Positions 2,837 through 31,380 of a stretch of DNA of 32,000 bases are shown one piece after another. Each line of letters starts with the position of its first letter. Positions within the stretch are counted from its first letter, which is position 1. Position numbers and translations under genes: made by a program. The DNA comes from Candidatus Saccharimonadota bacterium (lineage in GTDB: Bacteria > Pseudomonadota > Gammaproteobacteria > Enterobacterales > Enterobacteriaceae). Location: assembly GCF_964059045.1 (NCBI RefSeq), contig NZ_OZ060402.1, positions 180,001 through 212,000 on the forward strand, given 5' to 3'. The notes under the pieces are model-generated. The model was given only the letters and a program-made list of their open reading frames with translations. It did no database searches and had not been told where the DNA came from.

Positions 2837-3097
2837 TTATATTTTTATTTGAATATCACTCATCATAATACAACAACAAGGAAAAACTTCTTCAGGATAA
2901 GCAAAAGCTATTGGTTGAGTTATTATATATTTTATTTGACCTTTAATCAAAATGACTTTGCATGCTCCACAAAAACCATATCTGCATTGAGCATTGATTT
3001 TAATTTTATAATTTTCTAAAATTTTTAATAGTATTTTGCTATTATGAGAAATAATTTTTTTATTTTGTCCTATTATTGTGATGGAATATTTTTTCAT
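2837..3097 (-). CDS. yfaE: 2Fe-2S ferredoxin YfaE (ribonucleotide reductase diferric-tyrosyl cofactor maintenance)
   Basis: About 86 aa with a plant-type ferredoxin cysteine pattern (CRYGFCGACKV ... PCCC). It lies immediately downstream of nrdB, as in E. coli nrdA-nrdB-yfaE. Start chosen at MKKYSITI by length and homology; the longer ORF-track start would overlap nrdB. Confidence 0.85.
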   Translation of the reverse strand: MKKYSITIIGQNKKIISHNSKILLKILENYKIKINAQCRYGFCGACKVILIKGQIKYIITQPIAFAYPEEVFPCCCIMMSDIQIKI

Positions 3098-3098
3098 A

Positions 3099-4232
3099 CT
3101 ATAATTCAAATTTTTTAAAATCATGTTCATGTATAGAAGAATCAATTTGACCGACTAAATAAGAACTAATTTCAGTTTCTTGTGGAGCGACTTGTACATT
3201 ATCTGATGTTAACCAAGAATTAATCCATGGAATTGGATTGGATGATTGATTATGAAATATTGGTTTTAATCCTATTGATTTCATTCTAATATTAGTAATA
3301 TATTCAATATATTGACATAAAATTTCTTTATTTAAACCTAACATAGATCCATTTTTAAATAAATACTCAGTCCAGTTTTTTTCTTGATTAGCTATTTTTA
3401 AAAATAGTTCCGATGATTCTATTGTTAATTCATCAGCAATATCAGCCATTCCTTCTTTGTTGTAATGGTTTTTTAATATATTAATTATATGTTGTGTTCC
3501 TGTGAGATGTAATGCTTCATCTCTTGCAATTAATCTTATAATTTTTGCATTCCCTTCCATTATTTCTCTTTCAGCAAAGGCAAAAGAACATGCAAAACTA
3601 ACATAAAATCTTATAGCTTCTAGAGCATTAACGCTTACTAAACATAAATATAATTTTTTTTTTAAATCATATAAATTAATATTAATTTTTTTATTATTAA
3701 TAATATGAATACCTTCGCCTAGTAAATTCCAATATTGAATCATTTTTATTAAATCATCATAATAATCAGAAATATCTTTTGCTCTTACACTAATATATTG
3801 ATTATTAATAATATCATCAAATATTAATGATGGTTGTGTAACAATATTTCTAATGATATGTGTATAAGATCGAGAATGAATAGTTTCTGAAAAAGACCAT
3901 GTTTCAATCCAAGTTTCTAATTCTGGGATAGAAATAATTGGTAAAAAAGCTATATTAGGGCTTCTTCCTTGAATAGAATCAAGTAATGTTTGATATTTTA
4001 AATTACTAATAAAAATATGTTTTTCATGATCTGGTAATTTTTGAAAATCAATTCTATCTTTTGATAAATCAATTTCTTCTGGTCTCCAAAAAAAAGATAG
4101 TTGTTTTTCAATTAATTTTTCAAAAATAAGATATTTTTGTTGATCATATCTAGAGATATTCACTGATTGACCAAAAAACATAGGTTCTTTTAATTGGTTG
4201 TTGTTGTGTTTAGAAAAAGTACTATATATCAT
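3099..4232 (-). CDS. nrdB: Class Ia ribonucleotide reductase, beta subunit
   Basis: 377 aa, collinear with E. coli NrdB (376 aa). Long near-identical blocks: [70 protein letters not shown]-terminal SSYLVGQID. Confidence 0.97.
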
Positions 4233-9495: not shown

Positions 9496-10067
9496 AGAGT
9501 TATAATCTCTTGTTATTTAATTCTTAAAATAAAATATGTTTATTGATAAAAGATCAATATTTTATTTTAAGAATATTGATCGTTAATAATATTTTTATTA
9601 TTAATTTTTATGTAAACATTTTTATTCATTTATTGGGATTAATTTTATCACATTGCTGTCAAATTTTTCAAGATTAGATAAAAAAGTTATGAAAATATTA
9701 ATTTATTGATATTTTATTTTTGATTTAATACATATAAATTTTTTGATAAAATTTATATGTATTATTGGTTAATTATTTTATAAATTAGTTTTATTGATTT
9801 TTGTTGTGTTTAATATTAAAAATTTATTATTAAAATATTTTATTTATTTTAAATTTTGATATAAATAAAAACTCAATTATTATTGAGTATAGATTTAATA
9901 TGTATATAATGACATATATCATGATTAGTAATAGTTGAAAAAATTAAAATATTATTTTAATGATTATTTAATTTTTAAATACAATTAATGTAAAAATAAA
10001 AATTAATTTTTTAAAAAATTATTTTTTGCTACAATAATATAGTTTTTAATCCTTTTTAGGAATTATT

Positions 10068-10796
10068 ATGAAAAATGAAGAAAAACAATTAATAGAAAAT
10101 TTATTTCATAAATTGAGCAAAGTAGAACAAAAATCAGATTTAAGAAATAGATCTGCTGAACAATTAATTCATTCTTTTATTAAAAATCAATCTAATGCTC
10201 CATATTATATGACTCAAACAATTTTAGTACAAGATACGGTGTTAAAAAAATTAAATAAACGTATTATTGAATTAGAGCAAAAAATATCTGAATATGAAAA
10301 TGAATTAAGTCAAAAATCAAAAAATACTGGTTTTTTATCTAATATATTTAAAAAAAATTATGATTCAACTACTAAAAACGCATCATATCATCGTGAAGAT
10401 GATGGTTCTGTTCGATCATCTAATCGTTCTGTTTTACCTTCTAGTTCTAGTGCTTCTAATACTGGTCCCGGTTTATCTTCTATTGGTAATAGTTTTTTAG
10501 GTAATGCTTTACAAACAGCTGTAGGGGTTGCAGGTGGTATGGTAGTTGGAAATATGTTAATGAATTTTTTTAAACATGAGAAACCAGAAGAAGAAATATT
10601 AACTTCATCTAACGATTCATTAATTGATCATACTGATTATGAAGAGTTTGATATATTAAACAATAATCCTTATAATGTTGTTAGCCAAGATCAAAATTTT
10701 TTATCTGATAATAATGATTTTTTTGATTCTAATGATATTCATCATATAGAATCAGACGATTATTATGAAGATAATAATGATGATGATCTTATATAA
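10068..10796 (+). CDS. Conserved protein of unknown function, DUF2076-like (coiled-coil N-domain, Gly-rich hydrophobic segment, acidic D/N-rich tail)
   Basis: The N-terminal block EEKQLIENLFHKL...APYYMTQTILVQDTVLKKLNKRIIELE resembles my recollection of the DUF2076 family signature. It is followed by GNALQTAVGVAGGMVVGNMLMNFF and a very acidic C-terminus. The family assignment is from memory and was not searched. Confidence 0.6.
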   Translation: MKNEEKQLIENLFHKLSKVEQKSDLRNRSAEQLIHSFIKNQSNAPYYMTQTILVQDTVLKKLNKRIIELEQKISEYENELSQKSKNTGFLSNIFKKNYDSTTKNASYHREDDGSVRSSNRSVLPSSSSASNTGPGLSSIGNSFLGNALQTAVGVAGGMVVGNMLMNFFKHEKPEEEILTSSNDSLIDHTDYEEFDILNNNPYNVVSQDQNFLSDNNDFFDSNDIHHIESDDYYEDNNDDDLI

Positions 10797-10973
10797 TTTA
10801 TAGTATATATAATTATTTAATTTATAGAATATATAATTATTTAATTTATAGAATATATAATTATTTGTGCATATTATTTTTAATTATAATTGTTTAAAAA
10901 CAATTATAATTAAAAATAATATGCACAAATAATTATATATTCTATAAATTAAATAATTATATATTCTATAAAT
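10797..10973. repeat. Perfect 154-bp palindrome (arms 10820-10895 and 10898-10973, 76/76 complementary, 2-nt centre) made of 24-bp tandem units, plus one extra degenerate unit at 10797-10820
   Basis: Base-by-base check: position x pairs with 21793-x across the whole interval with no mismatch. The unit TTTATAGAATATATAATTATTTAA occurs at 10821-10844 and 10845-10868 (last 2 nt differ), with a 1-mismatch copy at 10797-10820. Mirrored copies lie on the right arm. The unique core is GTGCATATTATTTTTAATTATAATTGTTT. Confidence 0.95.
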
Positions 10974-11562
10974 ATTTTTTTAAATATAAAGATATTCCTT
11001 TTTGACTAGTTTCTATTCCAGGTTCTCCTTTTTCCCAATTAGCAGGGCACACTTCTCCATTTTTTTCGTGAAATTTAACAGCATCAATAATTCTTAATAT
11101 TTCTTTTATATTTCTTCCAATTGGTAAATCATTAATAGATTGATGTCTAATAATCCAATTTTTATCAATGAAAAAAGTAGCTCTCAGTGCTACACCTAAA
11201 TCAGGATGTTCAACTCCATATAATTTTTGTATGTCTCTTTTTATATCAGAAATCATAGTGAATTGCATGGGACCTATTCCACCTTTTTGAATATTAGTAT
11301 TTCTCCATTTTTCATGAGAAAATACTGAATCTATAGAAACTCCAATTAATGTTACTTGTCTTTTTTGAAATTCTGAATATAAAGCATTAAATTCTATTAA
11401 TTCGGTAGGACAAACAAAAGTAAAATCTAATGGCCAAAAAAATAATACGCATCCTTGATGAGATGAATTTTGTTTTTTAAAATTGTAATTTTGAATAATA
11501 CTTCCATCATTTAAAATTGCAGGTGCAGTAAAATCAGGAGATAATTTACTAACTAAAATCAT
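10966..11562 (-). CDS. ahpC: Typical 2-Cys peroxiredoxin (alkyl hydroperoxide reductase C / TsaA type)
   Basis: 198 aa. Peroxidatic Cys motif FFWPLDFTFVCPTE, resolving Cys EVCPANW, and conserved blocks HEKWRNT and LRATFFID. Confidence 0.92.
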   Translation of the reverse strand: MILVSKLSPDFTAPAILNDGSIIQNYNFKKQNSSHQGCVLFFWPLDFTFVCPTELIEFNALYSEFQKRQVTLIGVSIDSVFSHEKWRNTNIQKGGIGPMQFTMISDIKRDIQKLYGVEHPDLGVALRATFFIDKNWIIRHQSINDLPIGRNIKEILRIIDAVKFHEKNGEVCPANWEKGEPGIETSQKGISLYLKKYL

Positions 11563-14178: not shown

Positions 14179-14257
14179 ATAATTTTATTCAAAAATTTTA
14201 ATTTGATTAATTTTAAAATTTATTTTTATTAAAATTAATATTTTTGAATAAAATTAT
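14179..14257. terminator. Composite hairpin between convergent nadK and ssrA (18-bp perfect outer stem plus 11-bp perfect inner stem)
   Basis: 14179-14196 (ATAATTTTATTCAAAAAT) is the exact reverse complement of 14240-14257. 14206-14216 (ATTAATTTTAA) is the exact reverse complement of 14229-14239. There is a 9-nt bulge on the left side only, a 12-nt loop, and TTTT follows on the + strand. Confidence 0.5.
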
Positions 14258-14319: not shown

Positions 14320-14688
14320 TGGTGGAGCTGGCGGGATTCGAACCCGCGTCCAAAAATTCTTATAACTTTAGTACTACATGCTTATTCTGTATAAATATTT
14401 ATATTCATTTTTTTTTGTACAGACACATTAAAAAAAATATAACTTAAAAAATATTTTAGTATAATAGCTTATAAGTATCACTAATAATACGATCTCTTGA
14501 TTAATGACCTTCTTTTTTTCTAATATTAAGAGAAAAATTTAGAAAAGAAGGGCTTTTACAGTTTATTAAGCTGCTAAAGCGTAGTTTTCTTGTTTTTCAG
14601 ATATTTTATTTTCGGTTTTTAGCGAGGCAACCGATCCTCGGCATGCACTTAGGTTTTCAGATTTTTTGTCAAATCCATAATCAGCCCC
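14320..14688 (-). ncRNA. ssrA: tmRNA (SsrA), about 369 nt
   Basis: The minus strand starts GGGGCTGATTATGGATTTGAC...GTGCATGCCGAGGATCGGTTGCCTCG and ends GGACGCGGGTTCGAATCCCGCCAGCTCCACCA. These match the tRNA-like acceptor/T-arm halves of E. coli tmRNA. The internal tag reading frame is ...GAA AAA CAA GAA AAC TAC GCT TTA GCA GCT TAA TAA (..EKQENYALAA**). Confidence 0.95.
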
Positions 14689-14935
14689 TAATCTTTATAT
14701 TAATTTGATGTTTTATAATAAATTTTTTTTAAAAAATATTCTAACATTTTTTTTTTTTTTTTTCTACAAATAAATTATATTATACATAATATAATTTATT
14801 ATTATTTTAAACAGGTAATAAGATATATATATATGATATTAAAATTATTTGTAATTTTATTAATTTACTAATATTATTGATTTTAAATAAATTATATTTT
14901 ATTATTTTTTTAAATATTATCCATGAGAAAAATAT

Positions 14936-24764: not shown

Positions 24765-25109
24765 AATAGATGAAATTTTATTTAATCATTTAAAATTTAA
24801 ATTATTTTACATATAAAAATATATTTTTATTTTTATTATATATTTAATATTTTTATTAAAATTGATATAATTATCTTTTTTATTTAATATTGAATATATT
24901 ATTATTTTGATTTTTGAATTATCAATGAATTTTTATTTTGATCTATTTTGATAATAAATTAAATATGATTAATTTTAAAAATATTTTTATAGTAATTTTG
25001 TAAGATTTTATAAAAAATATATAATAATTTTTATTCATTAATATTTTTATTTATATACATTATTTATGGAATATCAAGGACAAATGAATATAAAATAATT
25101 AATTAATTT

Positions 25110-26324: not shown

Positions 26325-26567
26325 TAGATTAATTTTGTATTGTATATAATATAGTACTATTTTGGTATTTAAGAAATTTTTTGACCTAAATAGTCGATTT
26401 TTAATAAGAAGTAAATAATAATTTATTAAATCAAAATAATTTATTGTATAAAAAATTTTTCAAGATATTCATTATTATTAATTAATTTTTTAAAAAAATT
26501 GATAATTAAGATTGTTCTTATTATTTAAAAACATGAATTAATTTAATTGTTTGTTATTATTTTTATA

Positions 26568-28260: not shown

Positions 28261-29352
28261 ATGAATAAAAAATATAAAATTGCAGTATTGTCAGGCGATG
28301 GTATTGGTCCTGAAATTATGCAAGAAGGATATAAAATTTTAGATGTAGTTAAAAAAAAATATTCATTAAATTTAGATACTATCGAATATGATATTGGAGG
28401 TGTAGCCATTGATAAATTTGGAACTGCTTTACCAAAAGAGACCTTACGTGGTTGTGAAAATTCCAATGCTATTTTATTTGGTGCAGTAGGTGGTCCAAAA
28501 TGGAATAATATCTCTGCAGAATGTCAACCAGAAAGAGCAGCTTTGTTGCCTTTAAGGAAGCATTTTAATTTATTTTCCAATCTGCGTCCAGCAAAATTAC
28601 ATCGTGATTTAATTCATTTGTCACCTCTTCGTGCTGAAATAGTGTCTTCTGGTTTTGATATTCTTTTTGTTCGTGAATTAACTGGAGGCATTTATTATGG
28701 AAAACCAAAAGGTAGAAAAAAAACTATTTCTAGTGAATTTGCTTTTGATACATCTATGTATTATGTTTATGAAATAGAACGAATTGCTAAAATTGCATTT
28801 GAGTTAGCACGTAAAAGAAATAAAAAATTAACTTCTATTGATAAATCCAATGTATTAGAAACTTCAATATTATGGCGAGAAATAGTGAATAAAATATCAA
28901 AAAATTATCTTGATGTTGATGTCACACATTTATATGTTGATAATGCATGTATGCAAATTATTAAAGATCCTCATTCTTTTGATGTAATTTTATCTTCTAA
29001 TTTATTTGGAGATATTTTATCTGATGAATGTGCAATATTAACTGGTTCTATTGGTATGTTGCCTTCGGCTAGTTTAAATGATAATTATTTTGGTTTATAT
29101 GAACCAGCAGGAGGATCAGCACCAGATATAGCTGGTAAAAATATTTCTAATCCTATTGCTTTAATTTTATCCATCGCAATGTTATTTAGGTATAGTTTAA
29201 AATTATATAGTGTAGCTAATGAAATAGAATGGGCTGTGGATGAGGTATTAAAGTTTGGTTTTAGGACTTTTGATATTTCTAATCAAATTAATTATGTCAG
29301 TACTCAAGAAATGGGTAGTAAAATTGCGTTTTTTTTGAAAAACAAGGAGTAG
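28261..29352 (+). CDS. leuB: 3-isopropylmalate dehydrogenase
   Basis: 363 aa, the same as E. coli. [43 protein letters not shown] and [21 protein letters not shown]. Confidence 0.96.
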
Positions 29353-29354
29353 TA

Positions 29355-30770
29355 ATGGGAAAAACTTTATATCAAAAGTTGTATGATCAACATATTATTT
29401 ATGAATCAAAATATGAACCATCTATTTTATATATTGATTTACATCTAATTCATGAAGTTACTTCTCCTCAAGCTTTTTCTGCATTGCGAAAATATAATAG
29501 AATTATTAGACAAACTAGAAAAACTTTTGCAACTATGGATCATAATGTTTCTACTTTAAGTAGTAATATCCAAGCTTCAGGATTAAAAGCACAATTGCAA
29601 ATGGAAACTTTAATTAAGAATTGTCAGGATTTTAATGTAAAATTATATGATTTAAATAGTTCTAAACAAGGTATAGTTCATGTTATTGGGCCTGAACAAG
29701 GTTTGACATTACCGGGTATGACTATTGTTTGTGGAGATTCACATACATCTACTCATGGTGCATTTGGTGCACTTGCATTTGGAATTGGGACTTCTGAAGT
29801 TGAACATGTTTTAGCTACTCAAACTCTTAAACAAAATCGTGCTAAAACAATGAATATACAATTAAATGGTATTATTCAAAAAGACATTACAGCTAAGGAT
29901 ATTATTTTAAGTATTATAGGAAAAGTTGGTATTTCTGCAGGAACAGGATATGTTATTGAATTTACTGGTCCTGTAGTTTCTATTTTAAGCATGGAAGCAA
30001 GAATGACGTTATGTAATATGGCTATTGAAATGGGTGCTAAATCAGCGATTATTGCACCAGACAATATAACATATAGTTATTTAAAAAATAAATTTTATTC
30101 TCCTAAAGGAGATCACTGGCAGAAAGCATTAAATTTCTGGAAAACATTAAAGTCAGACAATAATGCTATTTTTGATAAAACTATTGTCATTAATGTTACT
30201 AATATAGAACCTCAAGTAACGTGGGGGACTAATCCTGGACAAGTTAGTGCTATCAGTCACAATATACCTATGATAAATACTTTTTCTAATCCAATTGAAA
30301 GGGAATCTGCTAAAAATGCTATTTCTTACATGCAGTTACAACCTGGAATTAAATTAACAGATATTTATATAGATAAAGTTTTTATAGGTTCCTGTACTAA
30401 TTCTAGAATTGAAGATTTAAGATTAGCTGCTTCAATATTAAACAATAGACGAATAGATAAAAATATACAAGCTATTGTTGTTCCTGGATCTAAAAGTGTT
30501 AAAATACAAGCTGAAAAAGAAGGTTTAGATAAAATTTTTATTAATTCTGGTTTTGAATGGAGACTACCAGGTTGCTCAATGTGTTTAGGTATGAATAATG
30601 ATAGACTTTTACCTGGTGAAAGGTGCGCTTCAACAAGTAATAGAAATTTTGAAGGACGTCAAGGTAGAGGTGGTTTGACCCATTTAGTTAGTCCATCTAT
30701 GGCTGCAGCAGCAGCTATTTTTGGTAGATTTGTTGATATTAGACAATTAAATTCAAGAGATAAAAATTAA
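29355..30770 (+). CDS. leuC: 3-isopropylmalate dehydratase, large subunit
   Basis: [51 protein letters not shown], and the Fe-S ligand blocks [11 protein letters not shown] and GCSMCLGMN. It starts 2 nt after the leuB stop. Confidence 0.96.
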
Positions 30771-30774
30771 TTTT

Positions 30775-31380
30775 ATGGATAAATTTGAAGAACATACTGG
30801 TATTATAGCACCTTTAGATATTTCTAATATTGATACTGATGCTATTATTCCAAAACAATTTTTACAAAAAGTTACACGGGAAGGCTTTGGTCAATATTTG
30901 TTTCATGATTGGAGGTTCTTAGATACTCAAAGAAAAAAAGAAAATTGTAATTTTATATTAAATCAATCGCCTTATCGTTGTGCTAATGTTTTGTTATCAC
31001 GTAATAATTTTGGTTGTGGTTCTTCTAGAGAACATGCTGTTTGGGCCCTCATGGATTATGGTATTAAATTAATTATTGCCTCTAGTTTTGCAGATATATT
31101 TTATAATAATAGTTTTAATAATCATTTATTATTAATTACTTTAACAGAAGAAGAAATTGATAAAATTTTTTTAGTAGTAAAAAAAATTATAGGTATTAAA
31201 TGTTATGTAAATTTAGTTAAAAGTACAATTGAAATTAATAATCAATTATATAAATTTTTTATACCTGATTTTTATCGTGTTTGTTTATTAAATGGATTAG
31301 ATAATGTTGATTTAACTATGCAACATGAATCTTTAATTCAATGTTATGAACAGAAAATACCTATTTTTTTTCGTCATTAA
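30775..31380 (+). CDS. leuD: 3-isopropylmalate dehydratase, small subunit
   Basis: 201 aa, the same as E. coli. HTGIIAPLDISNIDTDAIIPKQFL and NFGCGSSREHAVWAL. It starts 4 nt after the leuC stop. Confidence 0.95.
   Translation: MDKFEEHTGIIAPLDISNIDTDAIIPKQFLQKVTREGFGQYLFHDWRFLDTQRKKENCNFILNQSPYRCANVLLSRNNFGCGSSREHAVWALMDYGIKLIIASSFADIFYNNSFNNHLLLITLTEEEIDKIFLVVKKIIGIKCYVNLVKSTIEINNQLYKFFIPDFYRVCLLNGLDNVDLTMQHESLIQCYEQKIPIFFRH

What the first reader, a model, noticed from the sequence alone, without database searches (positions are those of the whole stretch)
10797..10973. 154-bp perfect palindrome made of 24-bp tandem units between two convergent genes
Positions 10820-10895 are the exact reverse complement of 10898-10973. 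I checked all 76 pairs and found none mismatched; the centre is 2 nt. Each arm carries two copies of the 24-bp unit TTTATAGAATATATAATTATTTAA plus a unique core containing the only G/C bases (GTGCAT...). A third copy with one mismatch (10797-10820) exists on the left side only and begins directly after the stop codon of the DUF2076-like gene. The right arm ends inside ahpC, covering its last codons and stop (..TAT TTA TAG, 10966-10973). TTTATAG is also the first 7 nt of every unit. The repeat therefore looks derived from the ahpC 3' end by tandem duplication followed by inverted duplication, for example by template switching. Even at about 90% AT, a 76-bp perfect inverted repeat cannot arise by chance. 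Genomes of this endosymbiont type are known for lacking repeats and recombination. Perfect identity thus implies either a very recent origin or active homogenisation or selection. In E. coli, perfect palindromes of this size are unstable (SbcCD cleavage), which raises the question of how this one is tolerated. Both convergent transcripts would fold into the same 76-bp dsRNA hairpin. That would make a symmetric bidirectional terminator and a potential RNase III substrate.
Basis: partly seen in the sequence, partly recalled or inferred. Interest (0 to 1): 0.75.

Follow-up and report, generated by a model that had tools for sequence, protein, structure and literature searches.

The report
Giant perfect palindrome between two Buchnera genes
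An aphid endosymbiont (Buchnera of Eriosoma grossulariae) carries a real, mismatch-free 154-bp palindrome where its relatives have a small hairpin between two converging genes. It was most likely made recently by a DNA-copying slip that also rewrote the last codons and stop of the peroxiredoxin gene ahpC, which makes it a neat example of a known mutation process rather than a new kind of element.

Summary
Positions 10820-10895 and 10898-10973 are 76/76 complementary around a 2-nt centre. Composition-matched shuffles never score above 15, and the next-best perfect hairpin in the 32 kb is 17 bp.

The window is Buchnera aphidicola of Eriosoma grossulariae. The flanking genes are yba2 (DUF2076, + strand) and ahpC (- strand), which converge.

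Six other Buchnera carry an ordinary 10-16-bp hairpin in the same spacer, so this is an oversized version of a positionally conserved 3'-end hairpin. No sister has the palindrome, and the 24-bp unit and core occur nowhere else in the window.

The left tandem array runs 31 nt past the palindrome into the conserved yba2 stop codon. The right array stops exactly at the palindrome edge. It supplies ahpC's last 8 nt, including a TAG stop where all six orthologs use TAA.

Best explanation: 24-bp slippage, then one recent template-switch (fold-back) copying event, largely neutral. An assembler-made artefact is ruled out for k of 77 or more. A read-level artefact is unlikely but untested, because only one assembly exists. 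Terminator function, SbcCD absence and age are inferred. Interest is moderate to low; it is a new member of a known kind.

The parts
10068..10796 (+). yba2 (DUF2076 protein), 242 aa, stop TAA at 10794-10796
   Evidence: Pfam DUF2076, E = 6e-47. 100% identical to CAL4320378.1 of Buchnera aphidicola (Eriosoma grossulariae). The C-terminus D-D-[LF]-[IV]-stop and the following TT are conserved in the sisters.
10789..10866 (+). Left tandem array: three full 24-bp units plus 6 nt (TRF: 3.2 copies). Register is TTAT[A/T]TAATTTATAG[T/A]ATATATAA. The first copy overlaps the last 8 nt of yba2.
   Evidence: TRF period 24, 3.2 copies, 96% matches, score 142. Register printout: copy 1 against copy 2 is 22/24, copy 2 against copy 3 is 24/24.
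10820..10895 (+). Left arm of the palindrome (76 nt). Inferred to be the template, i.e. the original arm.
   Evidence: 100% complementary to 10898-10973. The array continues 31 nt outward at 29/31 identity.
10867..10926 (.). Unique core: GTGCATATTATTTTTAATTATAATTGTTT, AA, then its reverse complement (29-bp stem). Possible ancestral hairpin or seed of the fold-back.
   Evidence: The core occurs only here, once on each strand. Sisters have 10-16-bp hairpins at the equivalent place. That it is the seed is an inference.
10896..10897 (.). Asymmetric 2-nt centre (AA)
   Evidence: The predicted loop is 4 nt.
10898..10973 (+). Right arm of the palindrome (76 nt). Inferred to be the copy.
   Evidence: Its two units (10927-10973; TRF 2.0 copies, 100%) end exactly at the palindrome boundary, with no periodicity beyond (7/31).
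10966..10973 (-). Last 8 nt of ahpC ((T)AT TTA TAG), lying inside the right arm. The stop codon is supplied by the copied sequence.
   Evidence: Translation ends ...YLKKYL*. The stop is TAG here and TAA in all 6 orthologs. AhpC tails after YLK are variable among Buchnera, 197-207 aa overall.
10975..10981 (+). T7 run 1 nt after the stem on the + strand. On the - strand it encodes ahpC's Lys-Lys.
   Evidence: Sequence. It gives hairpin-plus-U-tract geometry for the yba2 transcript only.
10966..11562 (-). ahpC (2-Cys peroxiredoxin), 198 aa, intact
   Evidence: Pfam AhpC-TSA at 2.1e-33 and 1-cysPrx_C. The FVCPTE and EVCPANW motifs are present. Identical to CAL4320396.1.

Best explanation
The palindrome is a real, lineage-specific and evolutionarily recent product of replication errors in the spacer between convergent yba2 and ahpC of Buchnera aphidicola (Eriosoma grossulariae).

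Step 1 (shown by the sequence): a 24-bp segment made of the last 8 nt of yba2 plus 16 nt downstream was tandemly multiplied by slippage to about 3.25 copies.

Step 2 (inferred): a single template switch, either fold-back of the nascent strand or a switch across the fork, occurred at a short inverted repeat or small terminator hairpin at the spacer centre. It copied 76 nt of the left side in reverse complement. Synthesis rejoined the original template 8 nt inside ahpC. This replaced the native right half of the spacer and the end of ahpC, and supplied a new TAG stop.

The result is a five-fold oversized version of the hairpin that every examined Buchnera keeps at this position. It probably still acts as a 3'-end or terminator hairpin. 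For yba2 it is canonical, with the stem followed by a T7 run. For ahpC it is hairpin-only.

Its extreme length and perfection reflect mutational history and weak purifying selection, not design. It is probably tolerated because Buchnera lacks RecA-dependent recombination and, from my own knowledge and not tested here, the SbcCD hairpin nuclease.
For: The structure is real in the sequence and far beyond chance.

Source and method: Buchnera of E. grossulariae. The library was sonicated, 2x251-bp Illumina, assembled by SPAdes with k up to 127, with no MDA. All canonical k-mers across the region are unique for k of 77 or more, so the assembler had an unambiguous path and every k-mer must exist in reads.

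A hairpin is conserved at this position in 6 other Buchnera, with 10-16-bp stems. The stem sequence is conserved within Tetraneura, and also between Buchnera of Sitobion miscanthi (L087) and a Logan assembly from an unidentified aphid (L088), but not between those groups. This matches the published finding that Buchnera terminators keep their position but not their sequence.

The palindrome is absent from the sisters and the spacers are unalignable beyond the yba2 stop. The unit and core are unique in the window.

Polarity: the left array extends 29/31 beyond the palindrome into the conserved yba2 stop, while the right array ends exactly at the boundary. ahpC stops with TAG against TAA in 6 of 6 orthologs.

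Mechanism class: template switching creates perfect stems in one event, with patterns up to 59 bp reported. Fold-back priming at short inverted repeats is reviewed.

A second, imperfect palindrome specific to E. grossulariae (33/39 paired) lies in the nadK/ssrA convergent spacer. This suggests that such events recur and then decay.

Buchnera lack RecA and nearly all recombination proteins.
Against: - No ancestral state can be reconstructed, because the sister spacers are unalignable. The template switch is inferred from the pattern, not from a before-and-after comparison.
- Only one assembly exists and I could not inspect reads. A metagenome scan for the right-arm/ahpC junction found nothing.
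- The polarity argument rests on a boundary coincidence plus an 8-nt match that is individually weak (7/8; empirical p about 0.1).
- The AhpC tail is not abnormally short. At 198 aa it resembles the 197-198 aa of two other Buchnera, so the sequence YL-stop could be native.
- The terminator role is unproven. The consensus terminator scan does not call the structure, which is 92% AT, and there is no U-tract on the ahpC side.
- SbcCD and rnc status in this genome were not tested.
Confidence: 0.62

Rival explanations
1. Same mechanism, opposite polarity. The 24-bp unit derives from the native ahpC 3' end and was duplicated there. The left arm is the inverted copy, and one extra unit arose later on the left by slippage plus a point change.
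For: The ahpC-sense sequence AAATATTTATAGAAT resembles the E. lanigerum ahpC end AAATATATATACAAA (K-Y-I-Y-K); this is my reading of the output. AhpC length (198 aa) is normal for Buchnera. The number of events needed is similar.
Against: - It requires the inverted copy to end exactly at the outer edge of the right-hand array.
- It requires the later left-hand unit to blend by chance with the conserved yba2 stop context (29/31 continuity).
- The resemblance to the E. lanigerum tail is about 8/11 in sequence that is over 90% AT, which is not significant.
- A TAG stop is atypical.
Confidence: 0.15
2. The perfect palindrome is actively maintained and functional. Recurrent intra-palindrome template switching homogenises the arms. 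Selection favours a very long AU-only stem as a terminator, as an RNase III processing site, or as a long dsRNA that controls ahpC and yba2 expression.
For: - A hairpin is positionally conserved here across Buchnera.
- In a spacer with 7% GC, stability needs longer stems.
- Template switching can repair stems as well as create them.
- The + strand has a canonical U-tract.
- E. grossulariae has more tight palindromes than its sisters in the syntenic 21 kb: 4 against 0 and 1.
Against: - At -90 kcal/mol the stem is several-fold beyond what any terminator needs.
- The other palindrome specific to E. grossulariae is already decaying (33/39 paired), which argues against general homogenisation.
- 5 of 7 convergent spacers in the window have no hairpin above chance.
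- There are no expression data and no covariation, because only a single sequence exists.
Confidence: 0.12
3. Library or assembly artefact: fold-back chimeric molecules formed at a natural smaller hairpin during end-repair or PCR were assembled into a palindrome that is not in the genome.
For: - There is a single short-read assembly with no long reads for this species, and the library had 12 PCR cycles.
- The 93% AT region is probably poorly covered (my inference).
- No independent assembly is on record.
Against: - All k-mers are unique at k = 77, 99 and 127, so the path is unambiguous and must be read-supported.
- 251-nt reads can span the full 154 bp.
- Fold-back chimeras would continue into the reverse complement of yba2. 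Here the right arm joins ahpC in frame, and the two flanks differ.
- No MDA was used.
Confidence: 0.07
4. Insertion of a palindromic mobile or dispersed element (MITE-, REP- or RPE-like).
For: Compact palindromic shape in an intergenic spacer.
Against: - The unit and core have no other copy in 32 kb.
- No Rfam family matches, and no target-site duplication is evident in the flanks.
- The left repeats grade into the native yba2 stop.
- Buchnera are not known to carry mobile elements (my own knowledge).
Confidence: 0.02

Closest known systems
Template-switch mutations that create perfect hairpin stems in one event (Mönttinen & Löytynoja 2022, PMC8794818; Ripley/Lovett quasipalindrome template switching in E. 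coli)
   Same: The new sequence is an exact reverse-complement copy of the adjacent sequence. It is created or extended around a short inverted repeat and is perfect at birth. It can overwrite neighbouring sequence in a single multinucleotide change.
   Different: - At 76 nt it exceeds the largest pattern those authors report (59 bp).
- It incorporates a pre-existing tandem repeat.
- It overwrites a gene's last codons and stop.
- It occurs in an obligate endosymbiont.
- No ancestral sequence is available to show the before state.
Conserved intrinsic or bidirectional terminator hairpins in Buchnera intergenic spacers (Degnan et al. 2011, PMC3164680)
   Same: It lies between convergent genes, and a hairpin is positionally conserved at this spacer in all 7 Buchnera examined. 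Primary sequence is not conserved between clades. A U-tract follows the stem on the + strand.
   Different: - The stem is 76 bp rather than about 10-16 bp.
- It is about 92% AT.
- There is no U-tract on the ahpC side.
- A consensus terminator scan does not call it.
Long perfect palindromes studied in E. coli, such as the 246-bp lacZ palindrome cleaved by SbcCD (Eykelenboom et al. 2008; Leach laboratory; cited in PMC7999016)
   Same: A perfect inverted repeat with a near-zero spacer, about 150 bp in total, predicted to form hairpins on single-stranded DNA.
   Different: This one is natural rather than engineered. It sits in a genome that lacks RecA and probably SbcCD (not tested here), so the cleavage-and-repair cycle would not operate.
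Perfect coding palindromes in AT-rich mitochondrial genomes of Nematomorpha (PMC6649704; abstract seen)
   Same: Long perfect inverted repeats that overlap protein-coding sequence in a reduced genome.
   Different: Those are numerous and lie within genes, with both arms coding. Here there is a single intergenic palindrome that clips only 8 nt of one gene.

Membership tests
Template-switch (fold-back) generated inverted repeat | The new sequence is an exact reverse complement of immediately adjacent sequence | tested here: met
   76/76 complementary with a 2-nt centre.
Template-switch (fold-back) generated inverted repeat | Derived state is absent from the outgroup or ancestral sequence | tested here: inconclusive
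   Six other Buchnera lack the palindrome. Their spacers are unalignable, so the ancestral sequence cannot be reconstructed.
Template-switch (fold-back) generated inverted repeat | Source and target can be told apart, with one arm continuous with its native flank | tested here: met
   The left array continues 29/31 into the conserved yba2 stop. The right array ends at the boundary (7/31 beyond it). ahpC stops with TAG against TAA in its orthologs.
Rho-independent bidirectional terminator | Located in the spacer between convergent genes | tested here: met
   yba2 (+) ends at 10796 and ahpC (-) ends at 10966.
Rho-independent bidirectional terminator | Short G+C-rich stem (about 5-20 bp) with a 3-8-nt loop | tested here: not met
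   The stem is 76 bp with 6 G/C per arm. The terminator scan reports nothing here.
Rho-independent bidirectional terminator | U-tract directly after the stem on both strands | tested here: not met
   The + strand has A then T7 at 10974-10981. On the - strand the stem is followed by TAAATAATTATATATAC.
Rho-independent bidirectional terminator | Transcript 3' ends map to the hairpin | not testable with these tools
   No RNA data are available.
SbcCD-sensitive long DNA palindrome (E. coli paradigm) | Perfect inverted repeat of about 150 bp or more in total, with a very short centre | tested here: met
   154 bp with a 2-nt centre. The ssDNA fold is -69.7 kcal/mol, z = -18.6.
SbcCD-sensitive long DNA palindrome (E. 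coli paradigm) | The host's sbcCD status explains tolerance | not testable with these tools
   Only 32 kb of the genome is held, and no sbcC or sbcD lies in it. The literature confirms only that Buchnera lack RecA and most recombination genes.
Dispersed palindromic element (REP/MITE/RPE-like) | Multiple copies per genome | tested here: not met
   The unit and core are found only at this locus in the window. The whole genome was not available.
Known structured RNA family (Rfam) | Match to a curated covariance model | tested here: not met
   No hit at gathering threshold. The only hit at E of 1 or less is a chance miRNA match outside the palindrome.

The most novel reading that the evidence does not exclude
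Buchnera of Eriosoma grossulariae may have a raised rate of palindrome-forming template switching, for example after loss of a hairpin- or 3'-end-processing nuclease. The 76-bp perfect stem would then be kept perfect by recurrent arm-to-arm copying. It would be used as a long dsRNA terminator or RNase III processing site that sets ahpC and yba2 expression. That would make this genome a natural model for the birth and maintenance of palindromes without RecA or SbcCD.
Probability: 0.1. Interest if true: 0.6.

Novelty: new member of a known kind. Interest (0 to 1): 0.35.

Why it matters
Buchnera genomes are the textbook case of genomic stasis, with essentially no repeats and no recombination. A mismatch-free 154-bp palindrome in one of them shows that replication template switching still produces large structural novelty there. 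In this case the product also rewrote a gene's stop codon.

It is an unusually clean natural example of the process, because the source and target arms can be told apart. It could be dated and tested with population samples. It also offers a natural test of whether long perfect palindromes are stable in a bacterium that lacks RecA and probably SbcCD.

It does not reveal a new kind of element or function.

Tried and rejected
- **Exact-protein look-ups.** The window's AhpC and Yba2 are not on record. The cluster look-up shows a single NCBI assembly, so no independent assembly exists.
- **Metagenome scan for the right-arm/ahpC junction.** No hits.
- **'AhpC was truncated by the palindrome'.** I first thought this from the two Eriosoma sisters, whose tails are 3-4 aa longer. 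I dropped it as evidence once other Buchnera showed 197-198-aa AhpC. Only the TAG stop and the boundary logic remain.
- **Spacer alignment between species to reconstruct the ancestor.** Nothing aligns beyond the yba2 stop.
- **Long hairpins as a general feature of convergent spacers in this genome.** Rejected: only 2 of 7 exceed shuffles.
- **Promoter-like matches inside the palindrome.** Not above expectation in sequence this AT-rich (52 found against 39.9 +/- 6.5 expected), so I ignored them.
- **Mobile element or known RNA family.** Rejected.
- **Explicit Buchnera substitution rate and sbcCD status.** Neither is stated in the papers held. Both remain from memory.

Full report
**1. Observation**

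The sequence at 10797-10973 is as described. Arms 10820-10895 and 10898-10973 are 76 nt and 100% complementary around a 2-nt centre, AA. Complementarity stops abruptly outside the arms.

TRF finds a 24-bp tandem array of 3.2 copies at 10789-10866 on the left and 2.0 copies at 10927-10973 on the right.

The region is 7% G+C, so I checked chance explicitly:
- Shuffles of each intergenic spacer never give an inverted-repeat score above 15, against 76 here.
- The next-longest perfect hairpin-type repeat in the whole 32 kb is 17 bp.
- Predicted folding energies are -94.5 kcal/mol (RNA, + strand, z = -19.3), -90.6 (RNA, - strand, z = -17.9) and -69.7 (ssDNA, z = -18.6). None of 200 shuffles does as well.

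- The left array begins at 10789, 8 nt inside yba2.
- The innermost unit on each arm is truncated (22/24).
- Each unit contains a G, so the core does not hold the only G/C bases.

**2. Context and source**

The flanks are a DUF2076 protein (yba2, + strand, 10068-10796) and AhpC (- strand, 10966-11562), which converge. The rest of the window is standard Buchnera content: ackA-pta, nrdAB, gyrA, ung, grpE, nadK, tmRNA, grxD, rnt, sodA, pth, ychF, thrABC, hpt, pcnB, dksA, truA and leuBCD.

Both flanking proteins are identical to those of Buchnera aphidicola (Eriosoma grossulariae) on a 606,948-bp chromosome. That is the only assembly holding them.

According to the source preprint, the DNA was sonicated, PCR-amplified for 12 cycles, sequenced as 2x251-bp Illumina reads and assembled with SPAdes at k up to 127. 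No MDA was used, and no long reads were made for this species.

**3. Is it an artefact?**

I computed canonical k-mer multiplicity across the region. At k = 33 and 55 the arms share k-mers. At k = 77, 99 and 127 every k-mer is unique and none is its own reverse complement.

The de Bruijn path through the palindrome is therefore unambiguous, and each k-mer must have been present in reads. An assembler cannot have invented the structure.

A read-level fold-back chimera would continue into the reverse complement of yba2. Instead, the right arm joins ahpC in frame, and the two flanks are different.

I could not inspect reads, and no second assembly exists. I leave about 7% for an artefact.

**4. 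Comparison with relatives**

I retrieved the orthologous yba2-ahpC spacer from six other sources:
- Buchnera of E. lanigerum
- Buchnera of E. harunire (an NCBI assembly and a Logan assembly)
- Buchnera of Tetraneura ulmi
- Buchnera of T. sorini
- Buchnera of Sitobion miscanthi
- one Logan assembly from an unidentified aphid, L088

Spacer lengths are 113-154 bp, against 169 bp here. Every one has a hairpin in the spacer, with a stem of about 10-16 bp:

| Source | Hairpin stem |
|---|---|
| E. lanigerum | TTATCAATTACACCA, 15 bp |
| E. harunire | TTGGTGTCTAC, 11 bp |
| Both Tetraneura | (TT)CCGTCAATTAA..., 16 bp in T. ulmi |
| S. miscanthi and L088 | AAAGCCAGCA...TGCTGACTTT, with an A-tract and a T-tract |

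The hairpin is conserved in position, and in sequence within clades, but not between clades. This matches what Degnan et al. reported for Buchnera terminators.

None of the relatives has anything like the 76-bp stem. Beyond the conserved yba2 stop (TAA followed by TT) the spacers do not align. The palindrome is therefore specific to the E. grossulariae lineage, and it replaces an ordinary small hairpin.

The 24-bp unit and the 29-nt core occur nowhere else in the window. No Rfam family matches.

**5. Which arm is the copy?**

Written in a period-24 register, the left side reads:

```
10789  TTATATAATTTATAGTATATATAA
10813  TTATTTAATTTATAGAATATATAA
10837  TTATTTAATTTATAGAATATATAA
10861  TTATTT|GTGCAT...
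```

The left array runs 31 nt beyond the palindrome at 29/31 identity. It merges into the last codons and stop of yba2, which are native and conserved in all sisters.

On the other side, the array ends exactly at the palindrome boundary, 10973. The next 31 nt match the register at 7/31. The null mean is 14 and the maximum is 23.

The right-hand units therefore exist only as the mirror image of the left-hand ones. If the right side were the source, the inverted copy would have had to stop precisely at the outer edge of the array. A later extra unit on the left would then have had to blend with the yba2 stop context by chance.

I conclude, with moderate confidence, that the left side is the template and the right arm is the copy.

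Consistent with this, the right arm supplies ahpC's last 8 nt ((T)AT TTA TAG). The ahpC stop is TAG here but TAA in all six orthologs, and window-wide usage is TAA 20, TAG 3, TGA 3.

The AhpC tail after the conserved YLK is variable among Buchnera, at 197-207 aa overall, so a rewritten tail is plausibly harmless. The catalytic motifs are intact.

Two caveats apply. The 8-nt match within yba2 is weak on its own (empirical p about 0.1). AhpC is not unusually short.

**6. Mechanism**

This step is inferred. Slippage first multiplied the 24-bp unit.

A single template switch then occurred at a short central inverted repeat or small hairpin. It was either snap-back of the nascent strand on itself or a switch to the other parental strand. 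It copied the left side outward in reverse complement. Synthesis rejoined the original template inside ahpC.

This is the mutation class shown to create perfect stems in one event. Mönttinen and Löytynoja report patterns up to 59 bp, and fold-back priming at short inverted repeats is reviewed.

Zero mismatches in 76 pairs imply a recent origin. Using a Buchnera rate of about 1e-7 substitutions per site per year gives an upper bound of roughly 1e5 to 1e6 years. That rate is recalled from Moran et al. 2009 and is not verified in the papers held.

A second palindrome specific to E. grossulariae lies at 14179-14257 (33/39 paired, 1-nt centre), between convergent nadK and the tmRNA gene. It is absent from both sister genomes. 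It suggests that such events recur in this lineage and then decay. That favours recency over active homogenisation for the perfect one.

**7. Function**

This is also inferred. Given the positional conservation of a hairpin here, the structure most likely still serves as a 3'-end or terminator hairpin.

On the + strand, the stem is followed after 1 nt by a T7 run at 10975-10981. That gives canonical intrinsic-terminator geometry for yba2.

On the - strand, no U-tract follows, so for ahpC it is at best a hairpin-only element. The consensus terminator scan does not call it, because it requires a short G+C-containing stem.

A 75-bp dsRNA stem would be an RNase III substrate if rnc is present, which I could not test.

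Tolerance at the DNA level plausibly reflects the absence of RecA-dependent recombination and of SbcCD. The SbcCD point rests on my own knowledge of Buchnera gene content. The general loss of SbcCD and RecFOR in symbionts is discussed. Neither point was tested for this genome.

**8. Verdict**

- Tandem duplication followed by inverted duplication through template switching: yes.
- Origin at the ahpC end: probably reversed.
- Symmetric bidirectional terminator: only partly.

The palindrome is a striking but single-locus product of a known mutational process. It sits at a site where a known kind of element, the terminator hairpin, normally lies. I classify it as a new member of a known kind, with moderate to low interest (0.35).

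The most novel reading still open has probability of about 0.1. It is that this lineage has an elevated or homogenising palindrome-forming activity and uses the long stem functionally.

Noticed in passing
window 14179-14257: A second long AT-only palindrome (arms 14179-14217 and 14219-14257, 33/39 paired, 1-nt centre). It lies between convergent nadK (+, ends 14113) and the tmRNA gene (-, 14320-14688). The orthologous spacers of Buchnera from E. lanigerum (L089 14362-14530) and E. harunire (L090 14473-14626) lack it and fold much more weakly (-14.9 and -22.4 against -34.8 kcal/mol).
   Followed up: partly
window 1-21000 compared with L089 and L090 (syntenic ~21 kb): Tight palindromes (gap of 10 or less, score of 13 or more): four in E. 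grossulariae (scores 76, 21, 17, 15), none in E. lanigerum and one in E. harunire. This may point to more palindrome formation in this lineage. It needs a whole-genome census.
   Followed up: partly
window 9726-9764 and 14747-14800: A perfect 17-bp hairpin (9726-9742 / 9748-9764) lies in the divergent gyrA/yba2 spacer. A perfect 15-bp hairpin (14769-14783 / 14786-14800) lies a few bases after a T17 homopolymer (14747-14763), upstream of grxD.
   Followed up: no
window 10966-10968 and orthologs in L081, L082, L084, L085, L087, L088: ahpC ends with TAG in E. grossulariae but with TAA in all six other Buchnera examined. AhpC tails after the conserved YLK motif vary freely in length and sequence (197-207 aa overall).
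   Followed up: yes
window 28261-31380: leuB, leuC and leuD are chromosomal, directly downstream of truA, rather than on a leucine plasmid as in many Aphidinae Buchnera (the plasmid comparison is from my own knowledge).
   Followed up: no
window 24822-24913, 26485-26562, 2784-2845: Other, more decayed intergenic tandem repeats (periods 28, 35 and 32 bp; 76-83% matches). Slippage duplications recur in this genome's spacers.
   Followed up: no
L082 5566-6489 (E. harunire): grpE is called as 307 aa in the NCBI assembly, against 184-194 aa in the window, E. lanigerum and the Logan assembly of the same species. This is probably an over-extended start call.
   Followed up: no
window 2837-3145 / 3099-4232: The yfaE-like ferredoxin ORF and the nrdB ORF overlap by 47 nt on the - strand as listed mechanically. 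The same arrangement is called in both sister genomes (L089, L090).
   Followed up: no
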